A stretch of DNA of 64,000 nt from Octopus vulgaris (lineage: Eukaryota): the NCBI GenBank assembly GCA_951406725.2, contig OX597819.1:53878001-53942000 (forward strand). The letters are read 5' to 3'. Position 1 is the first letter of the stretch; every line of letters starts with the position of its first letter. Below the pieces are notes generated by a model, which saw nothing but the letters and a program-made list of their open reading frames with translations, did no database searches and was not told the DNA's origin. Of the stretch, positions 9,098 to 59,848 are shown one piece after another. Made by a program: the position numbers and the translations under genes.

Positions 9098-10705
9098 AGA
9101 GAGCAGTGCATGCCATCAAAGTGACACTGGAGTAAAATATACGAAGCCCAATATACCCACCATGACTATCTGTCTGATAAGGGTACACCAGGCACATGCA
9201 TCACAACCATATGTGCCTGACATGGTGAGCTCATATCAAAATAAACAGCACATGACCTTGCAGGTGGGACCCACGTCAAAATAGCCCATCCTGCTCAAAA
9301 GGTCCCTGAATAAGGGTCGTTTGAGGATGATGAACAAAATAGCCATGTTTCCAGACATGAATTATTCAAACCCCAAAGAATTCCTTTCAACACACGGCTA
9401 TGATGCTCCCTCACTACTTCTACTCATGATCAGAGATGCACATATCATCAACCACCAAGGGACCTGCTCAACTGGACAAGCCTTGCTATATTATCATTGC
9501 ATCTCTTATAGTCCTTCTGGGCTAGTGGCATACATTGGCTGGTAATGTGCCATACGGTTTCACCATTTTGTCCACAGATTCTGCACTTATCTCTTTCTGC
9601 TGTGTTGTTTATTCTGTATTTTATGTAGTTTGTTCTTAGTGCTTGCTCTTAGTGCTTGCTCTTGGGCAGCACAGATTAGAGCCTCCGTTTCCAGTTTTAA
9701 ATCACTTCTAGTCATCCACAGCCATCTTTTTTCTCTGTCTGTCTTATCTTCAACATCCCTATGAAATTGTCCATGCATTCTTTTCTTTACCCACCTATTT
9801 TCAGTTTCATTCGTTTTCAATTGCTTGTACAGTGCTTTATTTTTGCAATCTTTCATCCTACACAAGCCTGACCTTCTTACTTCTAATAATAGCGGTTCTG
9901 TGGCATTTTTTACATACCATGCTATGTTGTTTTCTTCTGCTCTAATGCTGTGTTTGCATCCAGCAAGTCCTCTTCCCTCTCTTTTTCTTGGAACATACAG
10001 TCTATCTGTGTCACTTTTGGGGTGGAGTGTCCCATATCTAGTTAGCAACTTCCCTGTCTTTTTGTCTAATCTGTTTAGCTCGTCTACTGTCCATGTGATT
10101 ACCCCTGCTCCATATCTAAGGAGTGAAATCGCTCAGGTGTTGATAGCTTCAATCTTACTCCATCCATTTAATTTCAACTTAAGGATCGGTCTCAGTCTGC
10201 AAGTACTCCACTTTAAATTTTTCTGTCATTTCTTTCTCCATCAATTTATCCATTTCCAAAGTCCCCAAGTACTTATAGCCCGTCTCTTCTATCTGCTTCA
10301 TAACCTCCACCGACGGTATCGTTAGCCCATCCATACATTTGATTTTGCCTCTCTTCAAGACTAACACACCACACTTTCTCAGTCCAAACTCCATTCTGAT
10401 ATCAGCACTGAAAGTATACACTGTATCAATGAGGGAACTGACTTGGGCTTCATCTTTACCATAAAGTTTGGGGTTATCCATGAGTAACAAATGGTTGACT
10501 TTTTGTTGGTGGCTTTTGAATACGAACCCAGCTTTTGCTTTCCTCAGAATTAGTGTTAGCAATATCAAACACAGTACAACGATCAGTGGGGACAGGCAGT
10601 CCCCTTGGAAGATGCCCCTCCTGATTTCTACTGTCCCTAAACTTCTTCCATATGCTGTCAAGTCCGTCCTCCAATTCTCCATACTTCTTCCAAGCAATCG
10701 CTCAA

Positions 10706-10706
<1 letters not shown>
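9097..10706 (-). mobile_element. R4/Dong-clade non-LTR retrotransposon, 5'-truncated and internally deleted
   Basis: RT motifs RRGIFQGDCLSPL, NHLLLMDNPKLY, MEFGLRKC and YKYLG; then DRLYVPRKREGRGL, MHGQF, ETEALICAAQEQAL and the CCHC knuckle CRICGQNGETVWHITSQC. Flanked by (TAA)n-type repeats on both sides. Confidence 0.88.
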
Positions 10707-10765
<59 letters not shown>

Positions 10766-11199
10766 CAGTTATTATTAAACCATCATCCACACTATCAATC
10801 AATAATAGCCATGTATTACTGACTTGTGGGTTTGTATCAAAGAGCTACTGTTTTGTGTAGGATAAATCTATAGAAGAAATCAACATGCCATCTTTCTTTG
10901 ACAAAGAAGGGCTACTAACCTTTCTCTGTCTTCTGATTACCACCAAAGAAATTGAGAGGTGGGTTTGTCAGAAAGATTTGAAGACATTTTCCTTTCTGGC
11001 CAAGTTCTCATCAACTTCAAGTTCTAGTTGAAAAGGAAGAGGAAGGTTGTGTAGGAGGTGCTATCTTTTAGGGTGTTTAACCCCTTTGTTAACATATCTC
11101 TGTTAAAATACACTACTATTGTGTCAATTTTGAAAATGAAAAATTTAACAAAATAAATTTGTCATTACTAAGCAGGTGTTTGAAACATAAATTAACATA

Positions 11200-16808: not shown

Positions 16809-17324
16809 ACATTATTTATATTTGACAGATATTTATCCTCATCTTGTTTGTTGCTAACACAACGTTTTGGCTGATATACTCTCCATCAGATGTCTTGAGA
16901 AAATTTAAAACCTGGGTTCTCATTCCTAAGGTGTTTTTCAATGTCATTATTATTATTCAGGTCACTGCTTGGAATCGAACTCGGAATCTTGAGGTTAGTA
17001 GCCCACACTCTTAACTACTATGCCATATGCCCGTGGGCAATTATGGAGTGAATTTTAGGGTTAATAAACCTAATATTTTCCTATCCTTCCTCAATACTGA
17101 TTCCCATATGCTACTCTTATCTGCACTCGGTCTGCTAAGGGGGTTATTATGTCCTATCATATGTGCTGCTTCTTTTAGTTTTTATATTTTCCAGTGGTGT
17201 TCTCTGTCTATTATTTTAACTTCATTCCACAGACACCTGATGAAAACTGGAGAGTATATCAGCTGAAATGTTGTGTTAGCAACAAACAAGATGAGGACAA
17301 ATATCTGTCAAATGTAAATAATGT
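16809..17324. mobile_element. Element with ~90-bp terminal inverted repeats carrying hammerhead-like remnants (Penelope pLTR-like) and an internal tRNA-like head
   Basis: 16809-16895 is the reverse complement of 17230-17324. The right arm reads acac-CTGATGA...GAAAtgtt-gtgt. A tRNA-like A/B-box segment lies on - at ~16960-17031. Confidence 0.6.
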
Positions 17325-17391
17325 GCATAATTCCTCATCTCTCAAATATAGAACTGTATATGTATGTATGTATAGATGTATATGTGAATGT

Positions 17392-17941
17392 CAGGTCACT
17401 CTCGAGTGCTACTGGTAACATGTAACCCAGTACAACCTGTTGCATGGTTGGGCCGTCAGCGACTAAACCGGCAACCCCACCAAGCTTGCTTGGTGAGGAG
17501 GGTGTTTATTGGACACCCTGCGGGATGAAAAACAAAACCCGTCAAAGGGCGGAGGAACTCTTGAGAGTCAACGGCCATCCAATAAATGTCTTAAGGCTGT
17601 ATCATGCGCAGGGACATAGAAATAATCGGACTGAATACCCGATCGCGCGGTTAAACCATTGGGAGTGAAGGACTCCTAGCCTTTGTTAGGGCATGCTTCT
17701 AGGAGAAGGTAACTCAGGTAACTGGGATAACTCCGACATAAAACCTGCAGCTCAGTGGTTCACAATGATGTTGACTTGTTCTTCTTTTCGGATTATGGCT
17801 GCTGTTGCTTAGTGAGTAGGATTGGCTCAGTGCACAGCCTTTCCTCACTTTAAAAAAAGTCTCTTGCACAGGCATTGCACGATAACAACATTGATTAAGC
17901 TTTGTGCAATGGCCATACTCGATAACGAGGGGGCAGCCACC
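17392..17941 (+). mobile_element. 550-bp non-autonomous retroelement, probably derived from RTE 5' and 3' UTRs
   Basis: Perfect 12-bp TSD atatgtgaatgt (17380-17391 and 17942-17953). It is GC-richer than the flanks, carries the RTE-5'UTR-like motif ctaggagaaggtaactc...aaaacc and a 3' stem-loop ctcg-ataa-cgag, and has no transposase or RT ORF. Confidence 0.7.
17394..17471 (+). ncRNA. Decayed HDV-like self-cleaving ribozyme candidate
   Basis: Nested double-pseudoknot order: P1 ggtcac/atggtt, P2 ccagt/accgg, P3 aca/tgc with loop acctgt, GG for P1.1, P4 ccg-tcag-cga, J4/2 CTAA. There are several mismatches and L3 is short. Confidence 0.45.
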
Positions 17942-18722
17942 ATATGTGAATGTGTTTGTGCTTGTCTACCCACCCCTCTCAGCTGCTTGACAACTAGTGT
18001 TGGTTTGTCTACATCCTATATAACTTAGTAAATAGTACCAGGCTTATATAAGTGTGGTACTTATGTAAGAATAAGTACTGGACTTAAAAATAAGTACTGG
18101 GCCCAGTCTATTTGACAAAAGCCCATCAAGATGGTGTCCCGGCATGGCTGCTGTCCAATTACTGAAACAAGTAAAGGAGTAAAGATAAAGATAGAATTTT
18201 TTGTGTGGTAAAACTTACATAAAACATAATGACATTATAAATTAAGTTATAGTAATGATTGCTTTACAGCTTCCTTTAGTTAAATAATTAATTGTCCTCA
18301 CCAGATATGTTTGTACATCTGTAACTAGTTTATCCAGTATTTGGAGAGCATTGGTGAAGGGGAGTGTTAGTAGTTGGAAGTTTGCTTGTTTGATGGTATT
18401 TTTTCTTGGTTGTAAAATGGGGAAAGTTTAAAACTTGCAACAAAGTATTTAACCTAAAGGTGAACACAAGTTACCAGTTGCTAGCAGGAACCCTTTAACA
18501 CCAGACAAGCTTTTTATTTATTGTTGTTGATGCTATTGTTTAACCCTAAGTCATCTTTAATTGAATAGACATATGATTAAAGACTTACCATTCATGGCTA
18601 CTCTGTTTTGCTTTCAGGGATAGTGTATCCACAAGAACGACATTATTTAAATTTCTTTTACACATTTGTTTTCAAAAGAAAGTAGGAGAGTATGTTTTGA
18701 AGGATATTTGGCTACTATTTCT

Positions 18723-34254: not shown

Positions 34255-35477
34255 TTGGGTTATTCCATAAATAATACTATTTGCATCAACTTGCTATAAA
34301 AGCAGGTAGTAATTTTACCTTGTACTTATTCTTAGTGCAAGTTTTGAAGAGTGCAGTTCGATTTTAATAGTTTTTTTCTTTTCAAAGCTATAATAGAAGT
34401 GACAAAGGAGCATATTCGGCATGTTTTGCTTTATGAGTTCAATAAAAGCAACAAGGCAACAGAAAATACGAGGAATATTAATGCAGTATATGGGGATCAG
34501 ACAATAAGTGTAAACCAGTGTCAATGGTGGTTCCAGAAATTCCGAGTCGGAATCTACAGCCTAGAAGACGAACCTTGTCCTGGAAGATCTGTAGAGCTCA
34601 ATGAGGACATCCTGCAAACCCTGGTGAAACAAAATCTCATTGTATCTGTTGAGGAACTAGTAAAGATGCTTCGATTTGGTCATTCAACCATTCATTGACA
34701 CCTGCATGCCATCAGAAAAGTTAGCAAATTGGGTCAATGGGTTCCTCACAAACATTCTGAGTTTAATCACGCACAGAGAATGAATGTATGCGCTTCTTTG
34801 CTGTCACGCTTCAAAAATAGACCCTTTTTCGTGACCAAATAGTGACTGGTGATGAGAAATGGGTTCTCTATAAAAATGTCAAACACCAAAAACAGTGAGT
34901 AGGGAAAGGAGAAACACTGGCACCCTAGGCTAAAGAAGGTCTTCAACCACATAAGGTATTGTTATCTGTTTGTTGGGATATGAAAGGTTTAGTCCACTTT
35001 GAACTTTTAAACCCAAACCAAACGATAACAAAGGAGATCTACTGTGAGCAGCTTAAGTCAGCGCTAGAAGGAAAATGACCATTTTTGGTTCCAAGACAAA
35101 AGGTGTTCTTTCATCAGAATAATGCTCAGCCACATACAATGAGGATGACATTCCAAAGGCTGGAGCAGTTTGAATAAGAAATGATGCCCCACCCATCATA
35201 TTCGCCAGACATTGCCCCCTCTGATTATAATTTATTCTGCAGTCTTCAATATCATAGGACAGAAAAAATATGAATTCTGTAGATGAGGTCAGAACAGTAC
35301 TGGAAGTGTATTTTTCATCACAGACAAGGGAATTTTGGAAGAGGGGCCCTTTCAAGTCTACCAGATAGATGGATGAGCATTGTCGAAAATGAAGGATTAA
35401 AAAAGAACTTTATTTATCTTAATTTTGAAAAATAAAAGAAATATAAAAAAACCTACATTATTTATGGGATAACCCAA
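34255..35477 (+). mobile_element. Full-length mariner (second subfamily, TTGGGTT ends); transposase pseudogene
   Basis: 21-bp TIRs ttgggttattccataaataat / attatttatgggataacccaa (1 mismatch) with TA flanks, at the end of a (TA)n run. Motifs HIRHVLLYEF, LEDEPCPGR, WVPHK, VTGDEKW and YSPDIAPSDY, with stops and frameshifts. Confidence 0.92.
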
Positions 35478-40052: not shown

Positions 40053-40862
40053 AATTCTATACGTCACAATTTGTCTTTGAATAAATGTTTCCAAAAAGTT
40101 CCTCGGAGAAAAGATGAACCTGGTAAAGGAGGTTTCTGGAAGGTGAATCCTGAATATATTGACCAGATAGAAAATGGTATATTGAAGAAAAGAAAGCACA
40201 ATGATCTTAACTACACACCCTTGAAGCGAAGTCGGTCAGACATTAGCTGTCAATCAGACAGTTTGAATTCCCAATCAGGACCTGATTGGGAAGGCAACAA
40301 AGCTGCAGAAATGCTGTCAAATGTCATTCACCTGCCTCCCACTGATGAAGTGAGTAATGACTTTAACCTGAACTTCCTGTTTGACCAAGACATCATGGTT
40401 GGCGATGTGAAAGTGAAAACAGAAACAATTATTGACGAAGTAGATTATGGTTCTTTGATGGCGCTTAGTCCTCCAGATTCTGATGGATCCAACGCTGACG
40501 ATATCAGCATGGACAATTTTTTCTGTAGCAATATATTAAACAAGCCTGTAAATTCTTCCATGAATGGTCGGGGGCATTCACTGGATGGTTCTCTAACTAA
40601 TAACCCCCTCGATTTAACTGTAAAAGGTACTGGTATCAAACATTGGTGGGCTGGGAATGACATGTGTAGCAACAGCTTCAATCTTAGTGCTGAGACTCGA
40701 GACTTTCTTAACAACACTATATTCACTATATGTGACAGTGCTGATGGACTGAACACACCTGAATCAAGTTCACCTTTACCTGAGAATCCCCACCCTTGGG
40801 CAGAATCTCGAACCCATTCTGACGATATGACAGCAACTTTTGATATTGATACAATAATGTAA
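40053..40862 (+). CDS. FOXJ1: Forkhead box protein J1, terminal coding exon (C-terminal half of the forkhead domain plus acidic/Ser-rich tail, 269 aa + stop)
   Basis: A polypyrimidine tract ending in ttttctttacAG (40051-40052) is followed in phase 0 by [35 protein letters not shown]...KKRK. This is FoxJ1-type helix 3/wing ([10 protein letters not shown]). C-terminal LDLTVKG..WW and HPWAE motifs follow; stop TAA at 40860-40862. The upstream exon (KPPYSY...WQ) was not recognised in the window. Confidence 0.92.
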
Positions 40863-45053: not shown

Positions 45054-46630
45054 ACCTTGGCTGCTGTTTCTCATATCTTAATCTTCAGGTCTTACCAAAA
45101 CTTCTGTGGGTCTGTTTCAGCTACTTTGATGTTCAAACTTACTGTTCAAACTTGACTGAAGCTCTTCCTGCTGTTGTGGAAGTTTGTTGTTCTTTAGTTT
45201 CTTTGTTAGAGGAGTTGTCTCTTTGACATGCTTGATGGACAATCTGACTTTTTCACAATCAAACCTATGGTTTGTGTAGCATGACTCTTATGGAGCATGT
45301 CCTTCATATCTGCCTGCCACAACAAGATGTAGTCCAGCAGAATGCCAGTGTTTTGACCATCCATGTCTTCAGGTTGTCTTGAACTGTGCTTTCTGCTGAA
45401 ACAGAATATTGGTGATGACAAAACGGATGTTGTGGGTTTCCTCATTGAGAAAGAACAAGGACTGGTCTGATGAAAAGGATGACGAGATCCAGTAACTTCT
45501 CTACTAGAAGTGCACTTGTCACCAAACAGTGCTTGCCAACCCCAACAGCTTGTTAGCCAAATCTTCCTATATGTCTACCAGCAGCATCCTCTAGTGGAAA
45601 CTGCAGGATATCCAGAAAAACTGGTGGGAAACACTTGCTGAGAGAACACATTGTTATGCTGACCAAGCAGACATCTTTCTATAATGCGTTTCACACAGTA
45701 TACAGTCCTACCAATCAAGCCCCTCTGCACTCTGTTGATGGATCAATTTTACTGACAGAGAATAAGGACATCATGCATCACTGGACTAAACAATTTGCAA
45801 ATCTTTTTGGGGACAGGCATACACTCAGTGCAAGCAGTACCAGAATACCACAACAGGAGGCAAAAACAGAGCTGGACAACACACCTTCCATCAGTGAGAT
45901 AAAGGCAGTGATTGCTGAGCTGAGAAATCATGAAGCTCCTGGTGTAGATGGTCTTCCAGGAGAAATATGCAAGTATGGTGGGAACTGACTTCAGAAGCTC
46001 ACTAACCACTTTTAATGGTGCTGGGTGAGAAGGGAAATCCTGCATGACCTGCACAACACCACAGAAATATCTCTGTCCAAAGGAGAAAAGTCAGAATTCT
46101 CCAACTGCAAAGGCATCATGTTGCTTTCCCTTGCAGACAAGATGCTGGTGTATGTTCTTCTAGAAAGACTCATCTCTGCCATAACTGATGAAGTCTGTCC
46201 AAAGCATCATTGTGGTCTTTGTCCTCCACCAGATACAGGAGAAATTCAGAGAGCAAAACATGGCCCTTTATGCTGCTTTCAAAGATCTGACAAAGATATT
46301 TGATATGGTTAGTAAGTATAGGCTGTGGAGAATCCTGAGTGGCTCAAGTCTCTCTTTGTCTTCCAACTTCTACCCAAGGGCCAGTGGGGACAGCTCAAAT
46401 ACCTGTTGAAACCCTTTTCCCATTGAGAACAGTGTGAAACAAGGTTGTGTCCTAGCCCCACCTCCCTTCATGATCTTCAGCATGATGCTGTGAGAGACCA
46501 AGGAAGACTTGCATAAGGGCAACTACATCTGTTTCCATACTGATGGTAACATATTCAACTCTTGCCAACTCCCAAGCTCATGTAAAGGCTCTGAAGGAGC
46601 TTCTCTTTGACCTGCTTTTACAGACACTAC
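45054..46630 (+). mobile_element. RTE(-BovB-like) LINE relic with inverted 5' segment
   Basis: On + from ~45426: RKNKDWSDEKD, ELDNTPSISEI, APGVDGLPGE, KGIMLLS, QIQEKFREQN, DLTKIFDMVS and VKQGCVLAP. On - (45054-45427): the end of the endonuclease, VITNILFQQK..KTT, LLDYIL and ETAAKV. Confidence 0.85.
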
Positions 46631-49925: not shown

Positions 49926-50788
49926 GAGTTTAAGGTTCCTAATTAGACTGAAAAGCTGCTAATATTTAAAAGAAAAATCAAGTGATGGTCTTGCTTTAAA
50001 GCAAGTTGCAACCATCATAGAAACATGATTGACCTTGAACTCTGCTGTGCATATGCACTAAGTTTTAATGTTCTAGCTCACTTCTGCAGTTTACAGCAGT
50101 GCTAAGAAGAAACGTGTGTAGCATGTGATCATCACACTGACCATGAATCTGCATCAAATTTTGCCAAAAGCTTAGCAACACCTGCTCAGAGGTCTACACA
50201 AAGTTACAGAAGGTGTATGAAGAGGAGTGTATGAGCCAAAAAAATGTCGATAGTGATGAACATTCTGGGAGATTGCAACCAACAGAACTGAGAAAAACAT
50301 TGCAGATGTGCATGCATCTGTGAGAAGAAATTGTCAGATCACCATCTGTGAGTTAACAGAGGATGTGCAGGTTAATTACGGTTCAGTTCAGACCATTATC
50401 GCTGAAGATTTGGGTAAGAGATGCATGCCAAAACTGCTTTCAGCTGGCAACATACCTGCCCATTCAGCACAGCTTATGCAACAGCTTTTGGATAGGTGCA
50501 ACATTCCCGAGGTCTCACAGCCAACGTATTCCCTAGATTTCATCCTTTGCAGCTTTTCCTCTTTACAAAAATCAAATCCCATTTGAAGGGAAGATTTCAG
50601 GATGTCAAGGAATTCAAAGTGAATGTGACAAGGCAGCTGCTGATTATCCCAAAAAATGAGTTCCAGGAATGGCTTCCATTAATGGAAACAGCACTGGCTT
50701 AAGTGTGTGGCTTCCGAAGGGGACTACTTTGGTACATGTTGCAGTTGTCTTTATAGCACCAGTCCAGATACTTATTGATCAGACCTTG
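49926..50788 (+). mobile_element. Internally deleted mariner relic (third family)
   Basis: Translates as CIKFCQKL..EVYTKLQKVY, DEHSGR, ITICELTEDV..GSVQTII and PKLLS, which joins directly to NIPAH..PTYSLDF and KCVASEGDYF. The right end agtccagatacttattgatcagaccttg+TA looks like a TIR; no left TIR was found and the left boundary is approximate. Confidence 0.75.
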
Positions 50789-52453: not shown

Positions 52454-55400
52454 ATCTCCATCTCTCTCTCTCATCCAAACATGGAAAAGTGGACATTAAA
52501 ATTATATATCTATATCTATATATATATATCTCATCATCATCATCATCACTGTTGTTTTGTTAGCTTTCCATGCTGGTATGGCTTGAAAGGGGTGTCACAG
52601 TTATTTTCAGTTTGTCTGAAACTTATTATGACAGCATCAGTGAAGCATAGCATTGACCATATTTGGCAACAAACATAACTTTGCATGCTCCTCTTTGCTG
52701 GATTAACACAAAAAAAAAAAAACATGTATTACTTCTACCTCAAAGTAGAGTGGTTAGCAACATGAAGGTCATTCAGCAGTAAAACCAACCTGTCCATGCA
52801 AGCATAGAGACATAAAAATAAAACTGCAAACAGGAAAAGCAGAAATAAAGACATGAAGCAACAATACTTACTGATTATCTTTACACGACCTCTAGCATCA
52901 CGGATACCTCTCTTTACTTTTAGAGCTGTTGGAGTGAACCGTGTCACATCAGCTAGGAGGTTCTTGATCTGTGGCTTAGCTTCAATAGTAGCACTGCTGC
53001 CAGATTTCACATTGTCCTCACTGGATTTTAATGGAGGTTTCACAATGCTTGGAGGGGCACTCAACACACTGGCATTTAATGGACCGAGCCCAGTCACACC
53101 AGGTGGGGGAGGCAAGCCAGGAGGTGGGATGCTTGGTAATGCTCCAGGAGGTCGTATGAGTCGGGGTGGAACAACACCTGAAAATACAGAAAACAGAATC
53201 AAAATCCAAAAATTTTTTATGCACATTAGTATTTAATAGGAAGAAGAAAAAAGAGAGAGAGAGAGCAGGGAAGGAAAACAAAAGAAAATGTGATGTTTTC
53301 TTTGTTGAAAAATTATACCTTACATCTATGTATTTGAGCAAGTGTAACATAATGGTGTAAGGCCATCATTTCCTTTTGGGTCTCACCCTTCTCTCTCCTC
53401 TTACATTGACACCACAGGTGCTGTGGCTCAATTCATTTGGCATGTCTGCAAGTCTGCAGGGACAAACAGCAGGAAAAGTCCTAATGTCAGTAACAGAATA
53501 AAACTTCATGTAAAGTACTAGAAGTGGTGGCATGAAACAGGGCAACATGTCAAACCTCTGACTAAAAGGGGGTAACTACCAGAGCCCCTCAGAGAAAATT
53601 TGGTGTGATACGCTGACACTCTCTCTCCTGAGGAAGATTTATATACCCAAACAATAATGCTGCAGAAATTGACAAGGTACTAGACCTGAGGTGGGTGAAA
53701 AGATTAACTTTTACCATTATCAAATACAAAAATGATGTCTCTACACTTTTCTGGCACTCTGCTGGTTAGAATAATGAGTGCCCTAGTTGATCTGATCAAT
53801 GGAACAGCTGGTTCATGAAATTAAAGTGCAAGTGGCTGAGCACTCCACAGACACACATACCCTTAAAGCAGTTCTCAGAGAGATTCATTAAAAGGAGAAA
53901 AATATAAACAAAAAACAACAGAAAATTCACTCACCAGGTGGTCCTTGGGGCAATCTGGGAGGTAAGCCACGCAGATTAGGTGGTAGGCCAGGTGGTGGAC
54001 CAGGAGGTAAACCAGCAGGTCTTCCTGGTGGTGGACCTGGTGGTAACAGACGCGGCATAGTGCCAGCTGGAGGACGCAGCGGTGGAGGTCTCATGAATAC
54101 TGGTGCTCCAGGTGGTGGACCTAAAATGATAAAGAATTAACAAAATAAATACATTCACAAACACCTGACAAAATAAAAAGTAAAATGAATTCAAATAGTG
54201 AAATCCATAGATAAACTACTGAAATATTGTATCTTTAATAAATAAAAGAACTCCTTCCTTTAGAAACCGAATGGTTCATCAGCCAAGTAAATGATTAAGT
54301 ACTGTCCCACTTCAGCTTACCTCTCTGTCATAAAGCATTGTCTCCCAATCTCTTTTTATCCTTGACATAATGCACTCTTCCTGAACCTTTGCTCTCTCCC
54401 CTCCTAACATAATGTACTATCCCTTACTTATGTTAGTGGAGGCACATAGCTTAGTGGTTAAGGTGTTGGATTCATGATCATAAGATCAATGTTTCAATTC
54501 CTGGACCAGGCAACATGTTATGTTCTTGTGCAAAACAGTTCATTTCATGGTGTTTCAGTCCACTCAGCTGGCAAAAATGAGTAATCCTGTGACAGACTGG
54601 CATCCCATCCAGATGGCCCTTACAAGTCGGCATGACTTGAAAAGGTAACCTTTACCTTTGCTTATGTTACCCCAACAACTTAATGTTCTCCCTAACAGAA
54701 ATAGCCTCCAAACTTCTGCCTGCTCTGCCCAACATAATGCACTGTTACCATTCCTTTGACCTTCCTAAAATAACACAATGTCCCCTAATTTCTGACTCCC
54801 ACCAACATAATGCCCTGTTCTCAACATTTACCCCACTTCCAACATAATGTACTAACTCCTACTTCTGTCCTTCCCAAACTCTGGCTCTCACCATCCCCTT
54901 CTTCTGTTTTTGTCCTTTTCAGAAATAAAAAAGTTTTACTGACCTGGTGGAACCCCTGGTGGTCCTCCAGGAGGTAGTCCTGGAGGTGGACCTGGAGGAA
55001 TCAGCTTATTAGGATGTGAAGGGATGTCTGTTGCTGTTGGTACTACAGGTGCCATTGACATAATTGGTCCAGATTTATTATCTTGAGTGTCTGTATCGGA
55101 ATTCTGTTTAGCATTGTCTTCTTCATCTGAGAGCTAGAAAGAGAAAACACCGTATGTTTACTATAAAACCAAAAATGCATTTACACCGTAAATAATAAAA
55201 ATCAAACAAGTAATCTTTATGTCTACACTCTTTATGGCACTCCATCGGTTATGATAATGAGTGTTCCACTTGATTTGATCAACCAGACAGCTTGATCATT
55301 AAATTAATAGGCGTAGGAGTGGCTGTGTGGTAAGTAGCTTGCTTACCAACCACATGGATCTGGGTTTAGTTCCACTGCATGGCACTTTGGGCAAGTGTCT

Positions 55401-57612
55401 TCTACTATAGCCACTGGCCGACCAAAGCCTTGTGAGTGGATTTGGTAGATGGAAACTGAAAGAAGCCCATCATATATATATGTATATATATATATGTATG
55501 TGTGTATATATGTTTGTGTGTCTGTGTTTGTCCCCCCAACTTCGCTTGACAACCGATGCTGGTGTGTTTACATCCCCGTAACATAGTGGTTCGGCAAAAG
55601 TGACCGATAGAATAAGTACTAGGCTTACAAAGAATAAGTCCTGGGGTCGATTTGCTCGACTAAAGGCGGTGCTCCAGCATGGTGACAGTCAAATGACTGA
55701 AACAAGTAAAAGAGATAAAAGAGAAAAAATAAGAGAGAAACATGCCAGTGGCTGAGCACCCCACAGGCACACATACCCTTAAAGTAGTTCTCAGGGAGGT
55801 CAGCATGACGCAGGGTGTGACAAGGCTGGCCCTTTGAAATACAGGGGTACATATTCATTTTTGGCAGCAGAGTGGACGGAAGCAATGCTAAATAGAATAT
55901 CTTGCTCAAAGATACAACACGTCACTGGATATCGAATTCATGACCTTATAATTGTAAGCTGAATACCCAAACCACTACATCATGTGCCTTCACACATGTC
56001 AACACTAAGTAAAGTATAAATGGACACATTAAGCTCATTGATCAGAAAAGGATGCAATCTTAATTTTGACTCAGTTGCCTTTGTCAGACAGTCAAGTCGA
56101 AAGACAATGGAGCTAAAATTCCAAGTCATATACACCATCCGAGCGTGGCCGTTCGCCAGCCTCGTCTGGCACCTGTGTCGGTGGCACATAAAAAACACCA
56201 TCCGAGCGTGGCCGTTCGCCAGCCTCGTCTGGCACCTGTGTCGGTGGCACATAAAATCACCCACTACACTCTCGGAGTGGTTGGCATTAGGAAGGGCATC
56301 CAGCTGTAGAAACACTGCCAGATCTGACTGGCCTGGTGCAGCCTTCGGGCTTCCCAGACCCCAGTTGAACCGTCCAACCCATGCTAGCATGGAAAGCGGA
56401 CGTTAAACGATGATGATGATGATGATGATTGTTAACCTTAAATGTATCGAGTGACCAATTAATTAATGTTTGATTATTTTTATATATAACTACACATGAA
56501 AACAACCACTTTTAATAAACATATGCATATACATGTTGTGCAATCCATGCCCATAGGAAAAATAGGAAGTGTGTGTGTGTGTGTGTGTTTGTGTATCATC
56601 ATCATTTTACATCCACTTTCCTTGCTGGCATGAGGTGGACAGTTTGACTGTATCAGTCAGATTGGAAGACCATGGACTGCTCTAGTGTTTCAGATTTGGT
56701 AAGGGTTTTTATGGCCCTTCCTAACACCAACTACTTTACAGAGTGTACTAAGTATATTTTTAATGCACTAGCATTATGGAAGTTGTCTTGCCCTCAACAA
56801 AAATAAAAAGTCCTCATAAGCCATGATGCTAGCACATAAATTTCATGAGCAGGCTGTTCCATTGATTGGATGAACTGGAATACTTGTCATCATAAGCAAT
56901 GGAGTGTCAGTGTATATCTTATAAAATATAAAAGCAAGTTGACAAAAAAAGATGAAGTGTTACATTTTTCTGTTCAGTATTTGTATTTTCATCCTCTTCA
57001 TTGACATCCTTAGAGTCATCCTCTTCACTATCAGAACTGTTCTGCTCTCTTGATTTACTGTCTTTCTCCTTGCTGTCTTTACTGTCACTCTCTTCATCTT
57101 TCTCTTCGTCTTCATCCTCTTCCTGTACATCAGGGGCCTGTTGTCCAGCCATACGCAACATCATCGCTTGTAGAGGGGTGACATTCTTACGTATTTTCTT
57201 AGCAAACTGATACTTAAACTCTTTCTCAGTTTCCTCAGGAGCTGCCTTTGCCTTGTCATCAGCAAAACGGATTTTTCTAATTTTAGCTAAAACAATTGAA
57301 AAAGAAATAATAAAAAAACCAAATTAGAGAGAGACATCTAAAATATTTCAACCAATAAATTTAATGCTATTTGTCATCATTTAATATCCACTTTTCCATG
57401 TGTGGGTCAGATGGAATTTCTGAGGCAGATTTTCTACATCTGGATGCCCATCTGGCCAACAAATTTCTACATCACTAGACATATTTTTCATGGAAGACTG
57501 GAAATGGATAACCTCACTAGTATGATGATGCCCCTTACAAACATCACATGATATCTAGCTAAAGGTACACACAAACACATATAAATGTACATATCTATCT
57601 ATCTATGTGTGC

Positions 57613-57666
<54 letters not shown>

Positions 57667-59800
57667 ATACATATACATAAACACACACATTTACAAAAGC
57701 TTTTTTCAGTTTCCATCAACCAAATCCACTTGCAAGGCTTTGGTTGGCTCAGGGCTGTATTAAAAGTCACTTGCCCGAGATTCCACACAATGGCAAAATA
57801 AACTTCTTAACTATACAGCCATGCCTACACACATACACGCACATGTGCATGCGAGTATATAACACACACATACACACATTTGTAATGTTGAAGGAAATAG
57901 AATAAATAAAAATCTCAAATGATAGATTAAGGATACAATACATTTCCTTTCTTGCAAACACTAGACACTTTATTCATTGATGCATTCAGTAGAAACAAGG
58001 CTTAAGACTTTGTAACAAATAAGGAGTGTATTGGGTTATGAGAAAAAAGAAGAAAAAGTACCAAGCCATACCAGCAGGTGGTTCTCCAACAGGCTCAGGA
58101 ACATTTTGTACAACTTCAGCTGCATGTTCCTCAACATCTACATTACCAATGATTTCATGAATATCTACAACAGAAAGAAACACAAATGTCAAAATGTGTA
58201 GTGAGAAAAATATTGCACCAATCTGAGCAGTTACTGATTTGGTTTTACACCTACAGGTAGCAGAATCACCCCGTATACAATCTAAGATTTACAGTTATAT
58301 TCATATTTACCCAGTATTGTTAAAGAATGTTATGGTTGTCAATAAGAATTAAGTATGTGAATTGAGATCTGTAACAAAACTATTTCTGAAATTTTTAGCC
58401 ATTTTCTTTTATATAAACTGATAGAATTATCATCACCATTTAATGTACATGTTTTATGCTGACATGGATTAGACAGTTTGACAATCCAAAGAGCCCCAGG
58501 ACTGCATCATGCTCCACTGCCTGCTTTAGCACGGTTTCTATGGCTGGATGCATCCTGCCATAGAAACCACTTTCAGCATATTCTGGGTGCTTTTTCAAGC
58601 CACTAGCCTAGTGACAGTGCCATACAGCTTGTAAGACTATGAACGCCAAGAGAGATGAGGGGTAAAGTATGAGAGAAGAGTCAGAACAGAACAAGTCTCT
58701 TGGTGTAGAGAAGTTGCAAGACTACTCACATTTTATAAGAGTCATGTAGAATAGAATCATGAATATATTTATTACAAACTGAATTAGTGTCAATTATTGG
58801 TTTGTTTGCTCAACATTTTCTTCCACCACTTTTAACAGTCTGCTAATCTTATTCCTTCATTTAACTTCAGGTGGTGGCATTATTATTATTATTGAATGAG
58901 AGAGCAGTGCATGCCATCAAAGTGACACTACGGTAAAATATACAAAGCCTTGTATAAGGATCATGACTACACAACTGATAAGGGTATACCAGACACATGC
59001 ATCACAACCATATGTGCACAATATGGTGATCTCATATCAAGATAAATAGCACATGACCTTGCAGGTGGGGCCCAGTTAAAATTTTCTTCAGGTCGAGTAG
59101 CCCATCCTGCCCAAAAGGTCCCTGAATAAGGTTTGTTTAAGGATGTTGAATGAAATACTCATGTTTCCAGAGGTGAATTATTCAAATCCCCAAAATTCCT
59201 CTCAACACATGACTATAATGCTCCCCTACTACTTCTGCTCATGATCAAAGATGCACATATCATCAGCCAATAAGGGACATGCTTAACTGATCATGGTCAA
59301 ACAACTGACAAGCAAATCTGTGGTATGGAGCAGAATATTTGCTGCAGCCCATCTTTTATACCAAGACAAAACAAGCTACAGTAGGAAAAAAATTAATGAA
59401 AATTTTTATATGAGATAATATGTAGTGACAATAGACAATCTAGAATTTAACAGTTAAGACTTAAAAGCTGGAATGAAATAAAAAAAAAATATTGGAATTT
59501 TTTTAACTAATGAAAAGATGATAAGGACAAGAGATTGAAAGGTATATGAATAAAAGAAAGAAAAGATTAAAAGGAAATGTATAATATGCAGAAATAGTAA
59601 TAAGAATGTCTTACCTTTTTCAGGATCATACTCTTCATCTTCACTGTCAGTAAGAGGAGGCGGTGAGCCAGGTGGAGGTCCTGGAGGTGATTTTTCTATG
59701 TACAGTTTCATATCAATGATTTTACCATCACCAGTTTTAGGACTAGAAAAAAAAAGATTTATATTCATTAAGAGAATAAATGCATTAATAGTAAAAACTG

Positions 59801-59848
<48 letters not shown>

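What the first reader, a model, noticed from the sequence alone, without database searches (positions are those of the whole stretch)
17392..17941. 550-bp TSD-flanked retroelement that begins at a decayed HDV-like ribozyme
Seen: a perfect 12-bp TSD (atatgtgaatgt) brackets a GC-richer non-coding 550-bp insert. Its first ~80 nt can be read in HDV-ribozyme order: P1 GGTCAC (17394-17399)/ATGGTT (17444-17449), P2 CCAGT/ACCGG, P3 ACA/TGC around loop ACCTGT, GG, P4 CCG-tcag-CGA, and J4/2 CTAA with the putative catalytic C at 17463. The predicted cleavage G (17394) is only 2 nt inside the TSD. The P1 and P2 mismatches are CpG->CpA type. Known: HDV-like ribozymes process the 5' ends of RTE, R2 and other non-LTR retrotransposons, and bipartite RTE 5'+3'-UTR non-autonomous elements exist. 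Inference: this is a promoter-less mini-retroposon that releases its 5' end from host transcripts by self-cleavage and borrows RTE machinery. If the region is FoxJ1 intron, it lies in the sense orientation. This copy has a short L3 and several mismatches and may be dead.
Basis: partly seen in the sequence, partly recalled or inferred. Interest (0 to 1): 0.72.

Follow-up and report, generated by a model that had tools for sequence, protein, structure and literature searches.

The report
Virus-like RNA knot heads RTE retroelements
This is one of well over a thousand copies of a short jumping element made from the two ends of a larger retrotransposon, and it begins with a sequence laid out like the nuclease-blocking RNA knot of flaviviruses, which likely sets the element's start by stalling the cell's RNA-chewing enzymes rather than by self-cutting.

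Summary
The insert and its 12-bp TSD are real. It is the first 507 nt plus the last 45 nt of a 4-kb APE-RT LINE of the same genome, in 1,494+ copies, mostly in (ATGT)n tracts, sense within a forkhead-gene intron. The HDV reading fails: copies start at G17390, not G17394; P3 pairs in 40% of cells; the P1 and P2 flaws are family-wide. Instead 17390-17446 has each class-1a flavivirus xrRNA feature I could check: three-way junction, 5'-end pairing, U·A-U triple, junction C, loop pseudoknot (91.9% paired, 0/500 shuffles). Rfam's flavivirus stem-loop model aligns here, below threshold. The same head tops LINEs whose proteins are only 27-50% alike, and two metagenome loci. One lineage carries up to 0.9 kb of upstream flank; 14 of its 15 loci have the triple broken. 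Likely mechanism: host read-through RNA is trimmed by 5'-3' exonucleases to the knot. Nuclease resistance is untested. My two paper searches found no retrotransposon xrRNA; one scan note reached a similar idea in another genome.

The parts
17380..17391 (+). Left target-site duplication; its last two bases are also the element's first two (microhomology)
   Evidence: 5' boundary
17390..17941 (+). Whole non-autonomous bipartite retroelement, no ORF
17390..17896 (+). 5' part: first 507 nt of the parent LINE's 5' UTR
   Evidence: 88-95% identical in full-length parents that continue into an endonuclease frame
17389..17446 (+). xrRNA-like knot (predicted): P1 17392-96/17435-39; P2 17397-17408; junction C17409; P3 17410-15/17427-32; 5'-end pairs 17389-90 with 17433-34; triple U17391 with A17411-U17431; loop pseudoknot 17419-23/17442-46
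17447..17503 (+). Middle of the shared head: hairpin 17452-17463 and hairpin 17474-17503; role not determined
17507..17584 (+). Second, strongly covarying three-way junction that ends the shared head; possibly a translation-entry or protein-binding domain (inferred)
   Evidence: 9 of 19 pairs with changes on both sides, 0/500 shuffles on all five measures
17895..17941 (+). 3' part: the parent's 3' UTR with its terminal hairpin, joined at a 2-nt TT microhomology (17895-17896)
17942..17953 (+). Right target-site duplication
40053..40862 (+). Host context: exon with the second half of the forkhead domain; the element lies sense in the intron before it

Best explanation
This is a short non-coding element made from the two ends of a resident APE-RT LINE and likely copied by that LINE's enzyme, and its first 57 bases are predicted to fold into a flavivirus-type exoribonuclease-resistant knot that likely sets the element's 5' end. 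Shown: the two-part origin, copy number, microsatellite targeting, TPRT-type truncations, one fixed start at G17390, and a head shared by distant LINE families. Inferred steps: (1) the element has no promoter and is transcribed inside host RNAs such as this intron; (2) once the host RNA is uncapped, 5'-3' exonucleases (Xrn1/Xrn2 type) degrade it until they stall a few bases before P1; (3) the protected RNA is bound at its 3' hairpin by the parent's protein and reverse-transcribed into (ATGT)n DNA; (4) the new flank supplies the U that pairs with A17434 and the microhomology for 5' joining; (5) a source with a broken triple can only be copied from longer RNA, so its daughters carry upstream flank.
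For: Identity: 9 of 14 stretches fetched hold the 5' part, endonuclease, RT and the 3' part in order (Pfam PF03372 and PF00078 on L325). 18 of 30 position-ordered copies reach the 5' end, 11 are truncated, 1 has a 5' inversion. Fold: pair counts on 29 heads give 91.9% paired with 0/500 shuffles as high, and 8 cells changed on both sides with 2/500; slid controls give 25-47%. The loop pseudoknot has two pairs changed on both sides in the metagenome loci. G17390, T17391, C17409, A17411, T17431 and C17433 are invariant across 8 family-level sequences. Rfam Flavivirus_SLIV aligns base for base with the head in four different heads, with C-G to U-A changes at the junction pairs of P1 and P3. A descriptor built from published class-1 features (PMC5760640, PMC8374639, PMC8128465; passages) hits at the first base in 9 of 11 family-level heads, in this copy and in 76 of 118 single heads, against 100 hits in 3.39 Mb of other DNA. 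MFE folding gives the junction in 3 of 4 non-mutant heads. Natural mutants: 15 loci keep 59 to about 940 nt of one shared upstream flank; the 8 with a complete 3' end share no downstream flank; 14 of 15 have a change at 17391 or 17431, the fifteenth at the P1 junction pair; 0 of 15 pass the descriptor. A single extra G, the mark of a capped template (PMC4859970, passage), is rare: T precedes G17390 in 84 of 90 heads.
Against: No nuclease assay or RNA-end data: only contigs were available. Rfam scores are 17.9-23.8 bits against a gathering score of 54.5 (E 0.03-0.27), and in the seven-locus scan only 1 of 7 heads was listed. The descriptor was written after I had seen the sequence. Many heads were found with patterns that fix parts of P1 and P3, so invariance there is partly by construction, and P1 and P3 show no change on both sides within the alignment. 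Folding energy is no better than shuffles (z 0.46, 0.03, -1.87, 1.46). The flank-carrying loci are one lineage, so the link is one event; six members of that lineage with the 17431 change start at G17390 with no visible flank, and no TSD was found around the 8 complete extended copies. The published halt site lies 5-6 nt before P1, i.e. 3-4 nt upstream of G17390; TSD offsets in 8 informative of 50 copies could not confirm carried bases. RTE clade is assigned from architecture, not from a tree.
Confidence: 0.65

Rival explanations
1. The head holds an internal Pol II promoter that starts at G17390; the RNA structure serves translation, stability or protein binding, and the flank-carrying lineage simply used an upstream promoter, as some SVA elements do.
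For: T before G at the start (84 of 90) fits a pyrimidine-purine initiator (recalled). 47 of 88 genome-wide non-T junctions have G (my count). 5' transductions occur in elements with internal promoters (PMC4859970, passage). Plant RTE 5' UTRs are described as exchangeable promoters (bioRxiv 2022.11.04.512097, abstract).
Against: In 30 non-T junctions examined, 5 are re-copies of the first 4-5 nt and 8 are single G that the ATG target register can also explain. It does not explain why the first 57 nt match every xrRNA tertiary contact, nor why the transducing lineage is altered at the triple.
Confidence: 0.15
2. The head is a self-cleaving ribozyme of a non-canonical or new class that cuts just before G17390.
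For: Fixed start at G; RTE elements are known to use HDV-like and twister ribozymes (PMC5786205, PMC6765202, PMC8501958; passages). An extended P1 from G17390 with a G-U or G-C first pair also scores well (89.7% paired, 3/500). Loss of cleavage would also give 5' transductions.
Against: In that extended P1 the second position is unpaired in 27 of 29 rows, which the triple explains. No Rfam ribozyme model matched any head. No HDV-type solution starting at G17390 is shared by two families.
Confidence: 0.12
3. One reading: a canonical HDV-like double pseudoknot that cuts before G17394 with C17463 as catalyst.
For: CC/GG pairs in 93% of cells, the 5-bp core of P1 in 95%, P2 in 88%. GGG-hairpin-CTAA spacing resembles HDV-type cores (recalled). 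With relaxed rules a variant with P3 shifted by one base and one mismatch is found in 3 of 8 family-level sequences.
Against: Whole model 78.8% paired, 101/500 shuffles as high; P3 40%; three of the five P1 core pairs are G-U in most rows. Strict search 0 of 27. Cutting at G17394 would remove four bases that all families and both metagenome loci keep. P1, P2 and P3 exclude the better supported helices.
Confidence: 0.03
4. The flavivirus likeness is chance or a non-functional relic, and the sharp start comes from reverse-transcriptase joining at ATGT microhomology.
For: Sub-threshold Rfam scores; most copies sit in microsatellites, where carried flank would be invisible; several truncations fall at ATGT-like microhomologies.
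Against: The start is the same in heads with unique flanks (list) and in two loci from other sources; descriptor background is about one hit per 34 kb; compensatory changes in P2 and the pseudoknot.
Confidence: 0.05

Closest known systems
Class 1 (subclass 1a) flavivirus xrRNAs; Rfam RF01415 Flavivirus_SLIV (PMC5760640, PMC8374639, PMC8128465; passages read)
   Same: Three-way junction P1-P2-P3, two 5' bases pairing with the two junction bases, U·A-U triple, C between P2 and P3, L3 pseudoknot with downstream bases; near base-for-base alignment to the Rfam consensus.
   Different: Lies at the 5' end of a genomic retrotransposon, not in a viral 3' UTR; scores below the gathering cut-off; the first base of the 5'-end pairing comes from the insertion site; resistance not shown.
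Bipartite ORF-less non-autonomous RTE elements: Bov-A, RTESINE1/2, WALLSI3, MAR4_MD, RTE-N2_Lch (PMC5786205; passages read)
   Same: 5' end plus 3' end of a resident LINE joined by internal deletion, microsatellite tail, no ORF, no tRNA head.
   Different: Their 5' ends are discussed as ribozymes or promoters; here the head looks like an exonuclease block and is shared by several distant LINE families.
Ribozyme-headed non-LTR elements: HDV-like in R2, L1Tc, baggins, RTE (PMC6765202 passages; PMC4908430 part 1 of 4) and twister in Perere-3 (PMC8501958 passages)
   Same: Works like them in outcome: a promoter-less element gets a defined, uncapped 5' end out of a host transcript.
   Different: No catalytic core found; the end would be made by host nucleases (5' phosphate), not by self-cleavage (5' hydroxyl). 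Ruminski 2011 and Webb 2009 were not held, so their RTE examples could not be compared.
SVA and L1 5' transductions (PMC4859970; passages read)
   Same: A source copy below a host promoter yields daughters with upstream flank.
   Different: Here the transducing lineage is altered at the predicted triple.

Membership tests
Bipartite non-autonomous RTE element | 5' part equals the 5' end of an autonomous LINE | tested here: met
   17390-17896, 88-95% identical
Bipartite non-autonomous RTE element | 3' part equals the same LINE's 3' end with a microsatellite tail | tested here: met
   17895-17939, 91-98%
Bipartite non-autonomous RTE element | No ORF, no small-RNA head | tested here: met
Bipartite non-autonomous RTE element | TPRT marks (TSD, 5' truncation, inversion) | tested here: met
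Bipartite non-autonomous RTE element | Parent falls in the RTE clade by RT phylogeny | not tested
   Only architecture: one APE+RT frame with C-terminal zinc fingers, as described for RTE-2_OV (PMC9115989, passages)
HDV-like ribozyme | Cleavage site (first base of P1) is the element's first base | tested here: not met
   Start is G17390, the drawn P1 starts at G17394
HDV-like ribozyme | P1 of 6-7 pairs | tested here: not met
   five pairs, three mostly G-U; sixth pairs in 18% of cells
HDV-like ribozyme | P3 helix closing L3 | tested here: not met
   40% paired
HDV-like ribozyme | P1.1 pairs between L3 and the bases after P1 | tested here: met
   93%, no change on both sides
HDV-like ribozyme | P2 of about 7 pairs; unpaired catalytic C in J4/2 | tested here: inconclusive
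   5 pairs with a family-wide mismatch; C17463 conserved but pairable with G17452
HDV-like ribozyme | Self-cleavage dependent on the catalytic C | not testable with these tools
   needs an in vitro assay
Flavivirus class-1a xrRNA | Three-way junction of P1, P2, P3 | tested here: met
   (alignment fold)
Flavivirus class-1a xrRNA | Two 5' bases pair with two junction bases (PK1) | tested here: met
   G17390-C17433 in 28 of 29 rows; position -1 with 17434 in 24 of 28
Flavivirus class-1a xrRNA | U·A-U (or C·G-C) base triple | tested here: met
   Sequence level only: the three bases are invariant in 8 family-level heads; the register is taken from the Rfam alignment and from recall of the Zika structure
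Flavivirus class-1a xrRNA | Conserved C between P2 and P3 | tested here: met
   C17409 in 10 of 11 family-level heads, U in one; U is tolerated in CFAV (PMC5760640)
Flavivirus class-1a xrRNA | L3 pseudoknot with downstream bases (PK2) | tested here: met
   90.9% paired, 2 of 5 pairs changed on both sides
Flavivirus class-1a xrRNA | Halt site 5-6 nt before P1 | tested here: inconclusive
   DNA boundary is 2 nt before P1; any further bases merge with the target
Flavivirus class-1a xrRNA | Score above the Rfam RF01415 gathering cut-off | tested here: not met
   17.9-23.8 bits against 54.5; so 'works like', not filed as a member
Flavivirus class-1a xrRNA | Protein-free resistance to Xrn1 | not testable with these tools
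   needs an in vitro assay
Hammerhead ribozyme (for 17507-17584) | Conserved core around a three-way junction | tested here: not met
   A 7-nt linker resembles the core, but four core positions differ in all families (numbering recalled); no Rfam hit

The most novel reading that the evidence does not exclude
Animal RTE retrotransposons carry a true class-1a xrRNA at their 5' end: the first xrRNA encoded by a cellular genome, a third way (beside promoters and ribozymes) for a LINE to get its 5' end, a module passed between distant LINE lineages and related by descent to the flavivirus knot, with a natural loss-of-function lineage recorded in this genome as 5' transductions.
Probability: 0.45. 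Interest if true: 0.92.

Novelty: new variant of a known kind. Interest (0 to 1): 0.8.

Why it matters
A 2021 review states that xrRNAs had been characterized only in viruses and asks whether eukaryotic genomes hold them (PMC8374639, passage). My searches returned no paper on a retrotransposon xrRNA. If the knot blocks Xrn1, it answers that question with thousands of genomic copies, explains how promoter-less LINEs without a ribozyme keep a fixed 5' end, predicts stable non-coding RNAs from sense-intronic copies, and bears on where the flavivirus fold came from. One gel assay can test it, and the genome supplies the mutant control.

Tried and rejected
RNA evidence: no RNA holder listed on record; four runs laid were contigs and cannot show ends, strand or level; they agree with the family letters at 17401, 17449, 17453, 17458. 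Distant homologues: 18 of 22 metagenome hits were chance; viral contigs gave 120 pattern hits, of which the 80 tested showed no head, and 0 in two further scans; prokaryote genomes gave 0 and 1 chance hit. HDV descriptor: strict 0 of 27; loose 8 of 27 rows with no solution shared by two rows; it found planted folds in 100, 83 and 64 of 100 at 0, 2 and 5% decay but missed the natural decayed motif L490, so its sensitivity is limited. A 190-nt HDV fold with long J1/2 or a hairpin in L3, suggested by scan notes on other genomes, was allowed in both searches and not found. Rfam drz-agam-2-2 had no match among 34 scored candidates in the genome. A Pfam endonuclease search meant to find other RTE heads returned another LINE type without this head. 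tRNA head: none. Twister, hatchet, pistol and hairpin were compared by eye (twister from the table in PMC8501958, the others from recall) and did not fit. TSDs around extended copies: none in 8. Covariance model R1 was built but not used. Supplements of PMC9115989 (8 of 12 files) and PMC5786205 did not hold the head motifs; four unsearched files may hold the RTE-2_OV sequence. PMC4758252, named by a scan note for a shared 5' domain of several LINEs, was seen only as a search listing and may already describe this domain.

Full report
1. Observation. The 12-nt repeat flanks the insert at 17380-17391 and 17942-17953 and occurs nowhere else in the window; the insert is 48% GC against 35%. A genome search gave 1,777 candidates; all 40 scored were 95-100% identical over nearly the whole length. 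The last 21 bases occur exactly 1,494 times, the reversed control 0 times. Among the first 30 of these by position, 18 reach the 5' end, 11 are 5'-truncated and 1 has a 5' inversion; by eye 28 have an ATGT/AT/GT tract at the 5' junction. Runs labelled as five further organisms hold half or more of its sampled words. The genome is probably an octopus (inferred from size and repeats; scan notes say the same). The site is sense within the intron that splits a forkhead domain.

2. What the element is. A pattern from the head pulled out longer elements. Following the 3' end and then the sequence behind the 5' part gave the parent: 9 of 14 stretches fetched hold 17390-17896 (88-95%), an endonuclease frame, an RT frame and 17895-17939 (91-98%) in order, over 3.8-5.1 kb (Pfam on L325). 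The two parts meet at a TT microhomology. This is the bipartite non-autonomous type described for RTE (PMC5786205, passages). The clade rests on architecture, not on a tree.

3. The real 5' end. All families begin at G17390. Of 118 near-complete heads, 90 have the first seven bases intact, and T precedes them in 84. The start is the same in unique flanks and in two distinct metagenome loci (4 of 22 hits). The head runs to about 17587 and is 82-88% identical between the element and families whose proteins are 27-50% identical to the parent, while the UTR behind it aligns only to the nearest family.

4. The HDV reading. On 29 heads the drawn structure has 78.8% of cells paired, with 101 of 500 shuffles as high; P3 pairs in 40%, the sixth P1 pair in 18%. 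The mismatches are family-wide. For it: CC/GG 93%, P1 core 95% (mostly G-U), P2 88%, and a shifted variant in 3 of 8 family-level sequences under relaxed rules. A strict descriptor found 0 of 27, and a loose one allowing a long J1/2 and an L3 insert found no shared solution; the descriptor missed a natural decayed motif. No Rfam ribozyme matched. Cutting at G17394 would drop four conserved bases.

5. The fold that fits. Helix enumeration and alignment folding give a three-way junction with a loop pseudoknot. This is the layout of class-1 flavivirus xrRNAs: two 5' bases pairing with two junction bases, a U·A-U triple, a conserved junction C and an L3 pseudoknot, with Xrn1 halting 5-6 nt before P1 (PMC5760640, PMC8374639, PMC8128465; passages). 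Rfam Flavivirus_SLIV aligns to four different heads at 17.9-23.8 bits, below its cut-off of 54.5; its consensus continues upstream with au, the letters the ATGT target supplies. The model has 91.9% of cells paired (0/500 shuffles) and 8 cells changed on both sides (2/500); slid controls reach 25-47%. It explains why T17391 faces a mismatch in a plain helix in 27 of 29 rows. A descriptor of these features hits at the first base in 9 of 11 family-level heads, this copy and 76 of 118 heads, against 100 hits in 3.39 Mb elsewhere. Limits: the descriptor came after the sequence; search patterns fixed parts of P1 and P3; folding energies are ordinary. A second junction at 17507-17584 covaries strongly (9 of 19 pairs, 0/500); its role is open.

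6. A natural mutant. Three parent copies shared upstream sequence. Two searches and longer stretches gave 15 loci (two are duplicates of each other) with 59 to about 940 nt of one flank, variably truncated. The 8 with complete 3' ends share no downstream flank, and 5 paralogs of the flank lack the LINE, so these are 5' transductions. Fourteen of 15 have a change at 17391 or 17431, two of the three triple bases; the other breaks the P1 junction pair; none passes the descriptor. Against: it is one lineage; six members with the 17431 change start at G17390 in microsatellite flank; no TSD was found.

7. Cap test. Only 88 copies genome-wide have a base other than T before an intact start (47 G, 25 A, 16 C by my count). 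Of 30 examined, 5 are re-copies of the first 4-5 bases and 8 are single G that the target register can explain. An untemplated G is the mark of capped L1 RNA (PMC4859970, passage); its rarity leans against a promoter but does not exclude one.

8. Mechanism and odds. Shown: origin, family, fixed start, shared head, sequence-level xrRNA features, transducing lineage. Inferred: transcription within host RNA, exonuclease stalling at the knot, copying in trans by the parent protein. Odds: exonuclease block 0.65, internal promoter 0.15, unusual ribozyme 0.12, chance or relic 0.05, HDV as drawn 0.03. The identity as a bipartite LINE derivative is near certain.

9. Novelty. The element type is known. 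The head is not an HDV-like ribozyme by the tests above and works, if the prediction holds, like a class-1a xrRNA; it is not filed as an RF01415 member because it misses the cut-off. Searches for xrRNA with retrotransposon (8 listings) and with transposable element or cellular RNA since 2021 (9 listings) showed no such report in the listings; searches for octopus with ribozyme terms gave 1 and 0 papers. Subscription papers and Repbase were not searchable, and PMC4758252 was not read. A scan note on another genome (e1-10133478), seen after I had written the idea down, proposes a similar roadblock; it is an unchecked AI note and not independent support.

Noticed in passing
L440-L447, L450, L451, L453-L456, L458: A lineage of the parent LINE carries up to about 0.9 kb of one upstream flank; five fetched paralogs of that flank lack the LINE (L448, L449, L452, L457, L459).
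   Followed up: yes
L091, L092, L100, L103, L106, L107, L172, L176, L177, L179: Several LINE families with proteins 27-50% identical to the parent carry the same 195-nt head at 82-88% identity, while the UTR behind it does not align; likely head swapping (no tree made).
   Followed up: partly
L093, L133, L099/L105/L108/L073, L180: Other internally deleted derivatives: one from a different LINE family, an older 71%-identical sister, a longer subfamily that keeps the last ORF codons, and a copy with another family's head on the parent's 3' end.
   Followed up: partly
window 17447-17478: An echo of the knot's start and junction (GTCGGGT ... CA ACCC) without a proper P3; perhaps a worn second unit, as flaviviruses have tandem xrRNAs. 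The transducing lineage also has C17472T here.
   Followed up: no
window 17386-17389 with 17442-17445: The upstream ATGT flank can pair with the pseudoknot's 3' strand, so the knot may latch only after the flank is chewed back.
   Followed up: no
L490:1501-1578 (- strand): A decayed but recognisable HDV-like motif elsewhere in the genome (RF02682, 35.5 bits, cut-off 44).
   Followed up: partly
L497, L502, L505, L506, L517: Short re-copies of the element's first 4-5 bases at the 5' junction, suggesting the enzyme reaches a template end near G17390.
   Followed up: partly
window 16809-17324: Element with 77-nt terminal inverted repeats (94%) just upstream, MITE-like.
   Followed up: no
window 9587-10844 (-), 45557-45988 (+), 1052-1702, 34348-34698, 50260-50586: LINE relics (R4/Dong-like and RTE-like) and mariner-like relics; names recalled from motifs.
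   Followed up: no
window 52735-59801 (-): Exons of a proline-rich and acidic protein gene on the minus strand.
   Followed up: no
L460-L489: Young Tx1/L1-like LINEs with intact 1,138- and 1,145-codon frames, some in tandem arrays.
   Followed up: no
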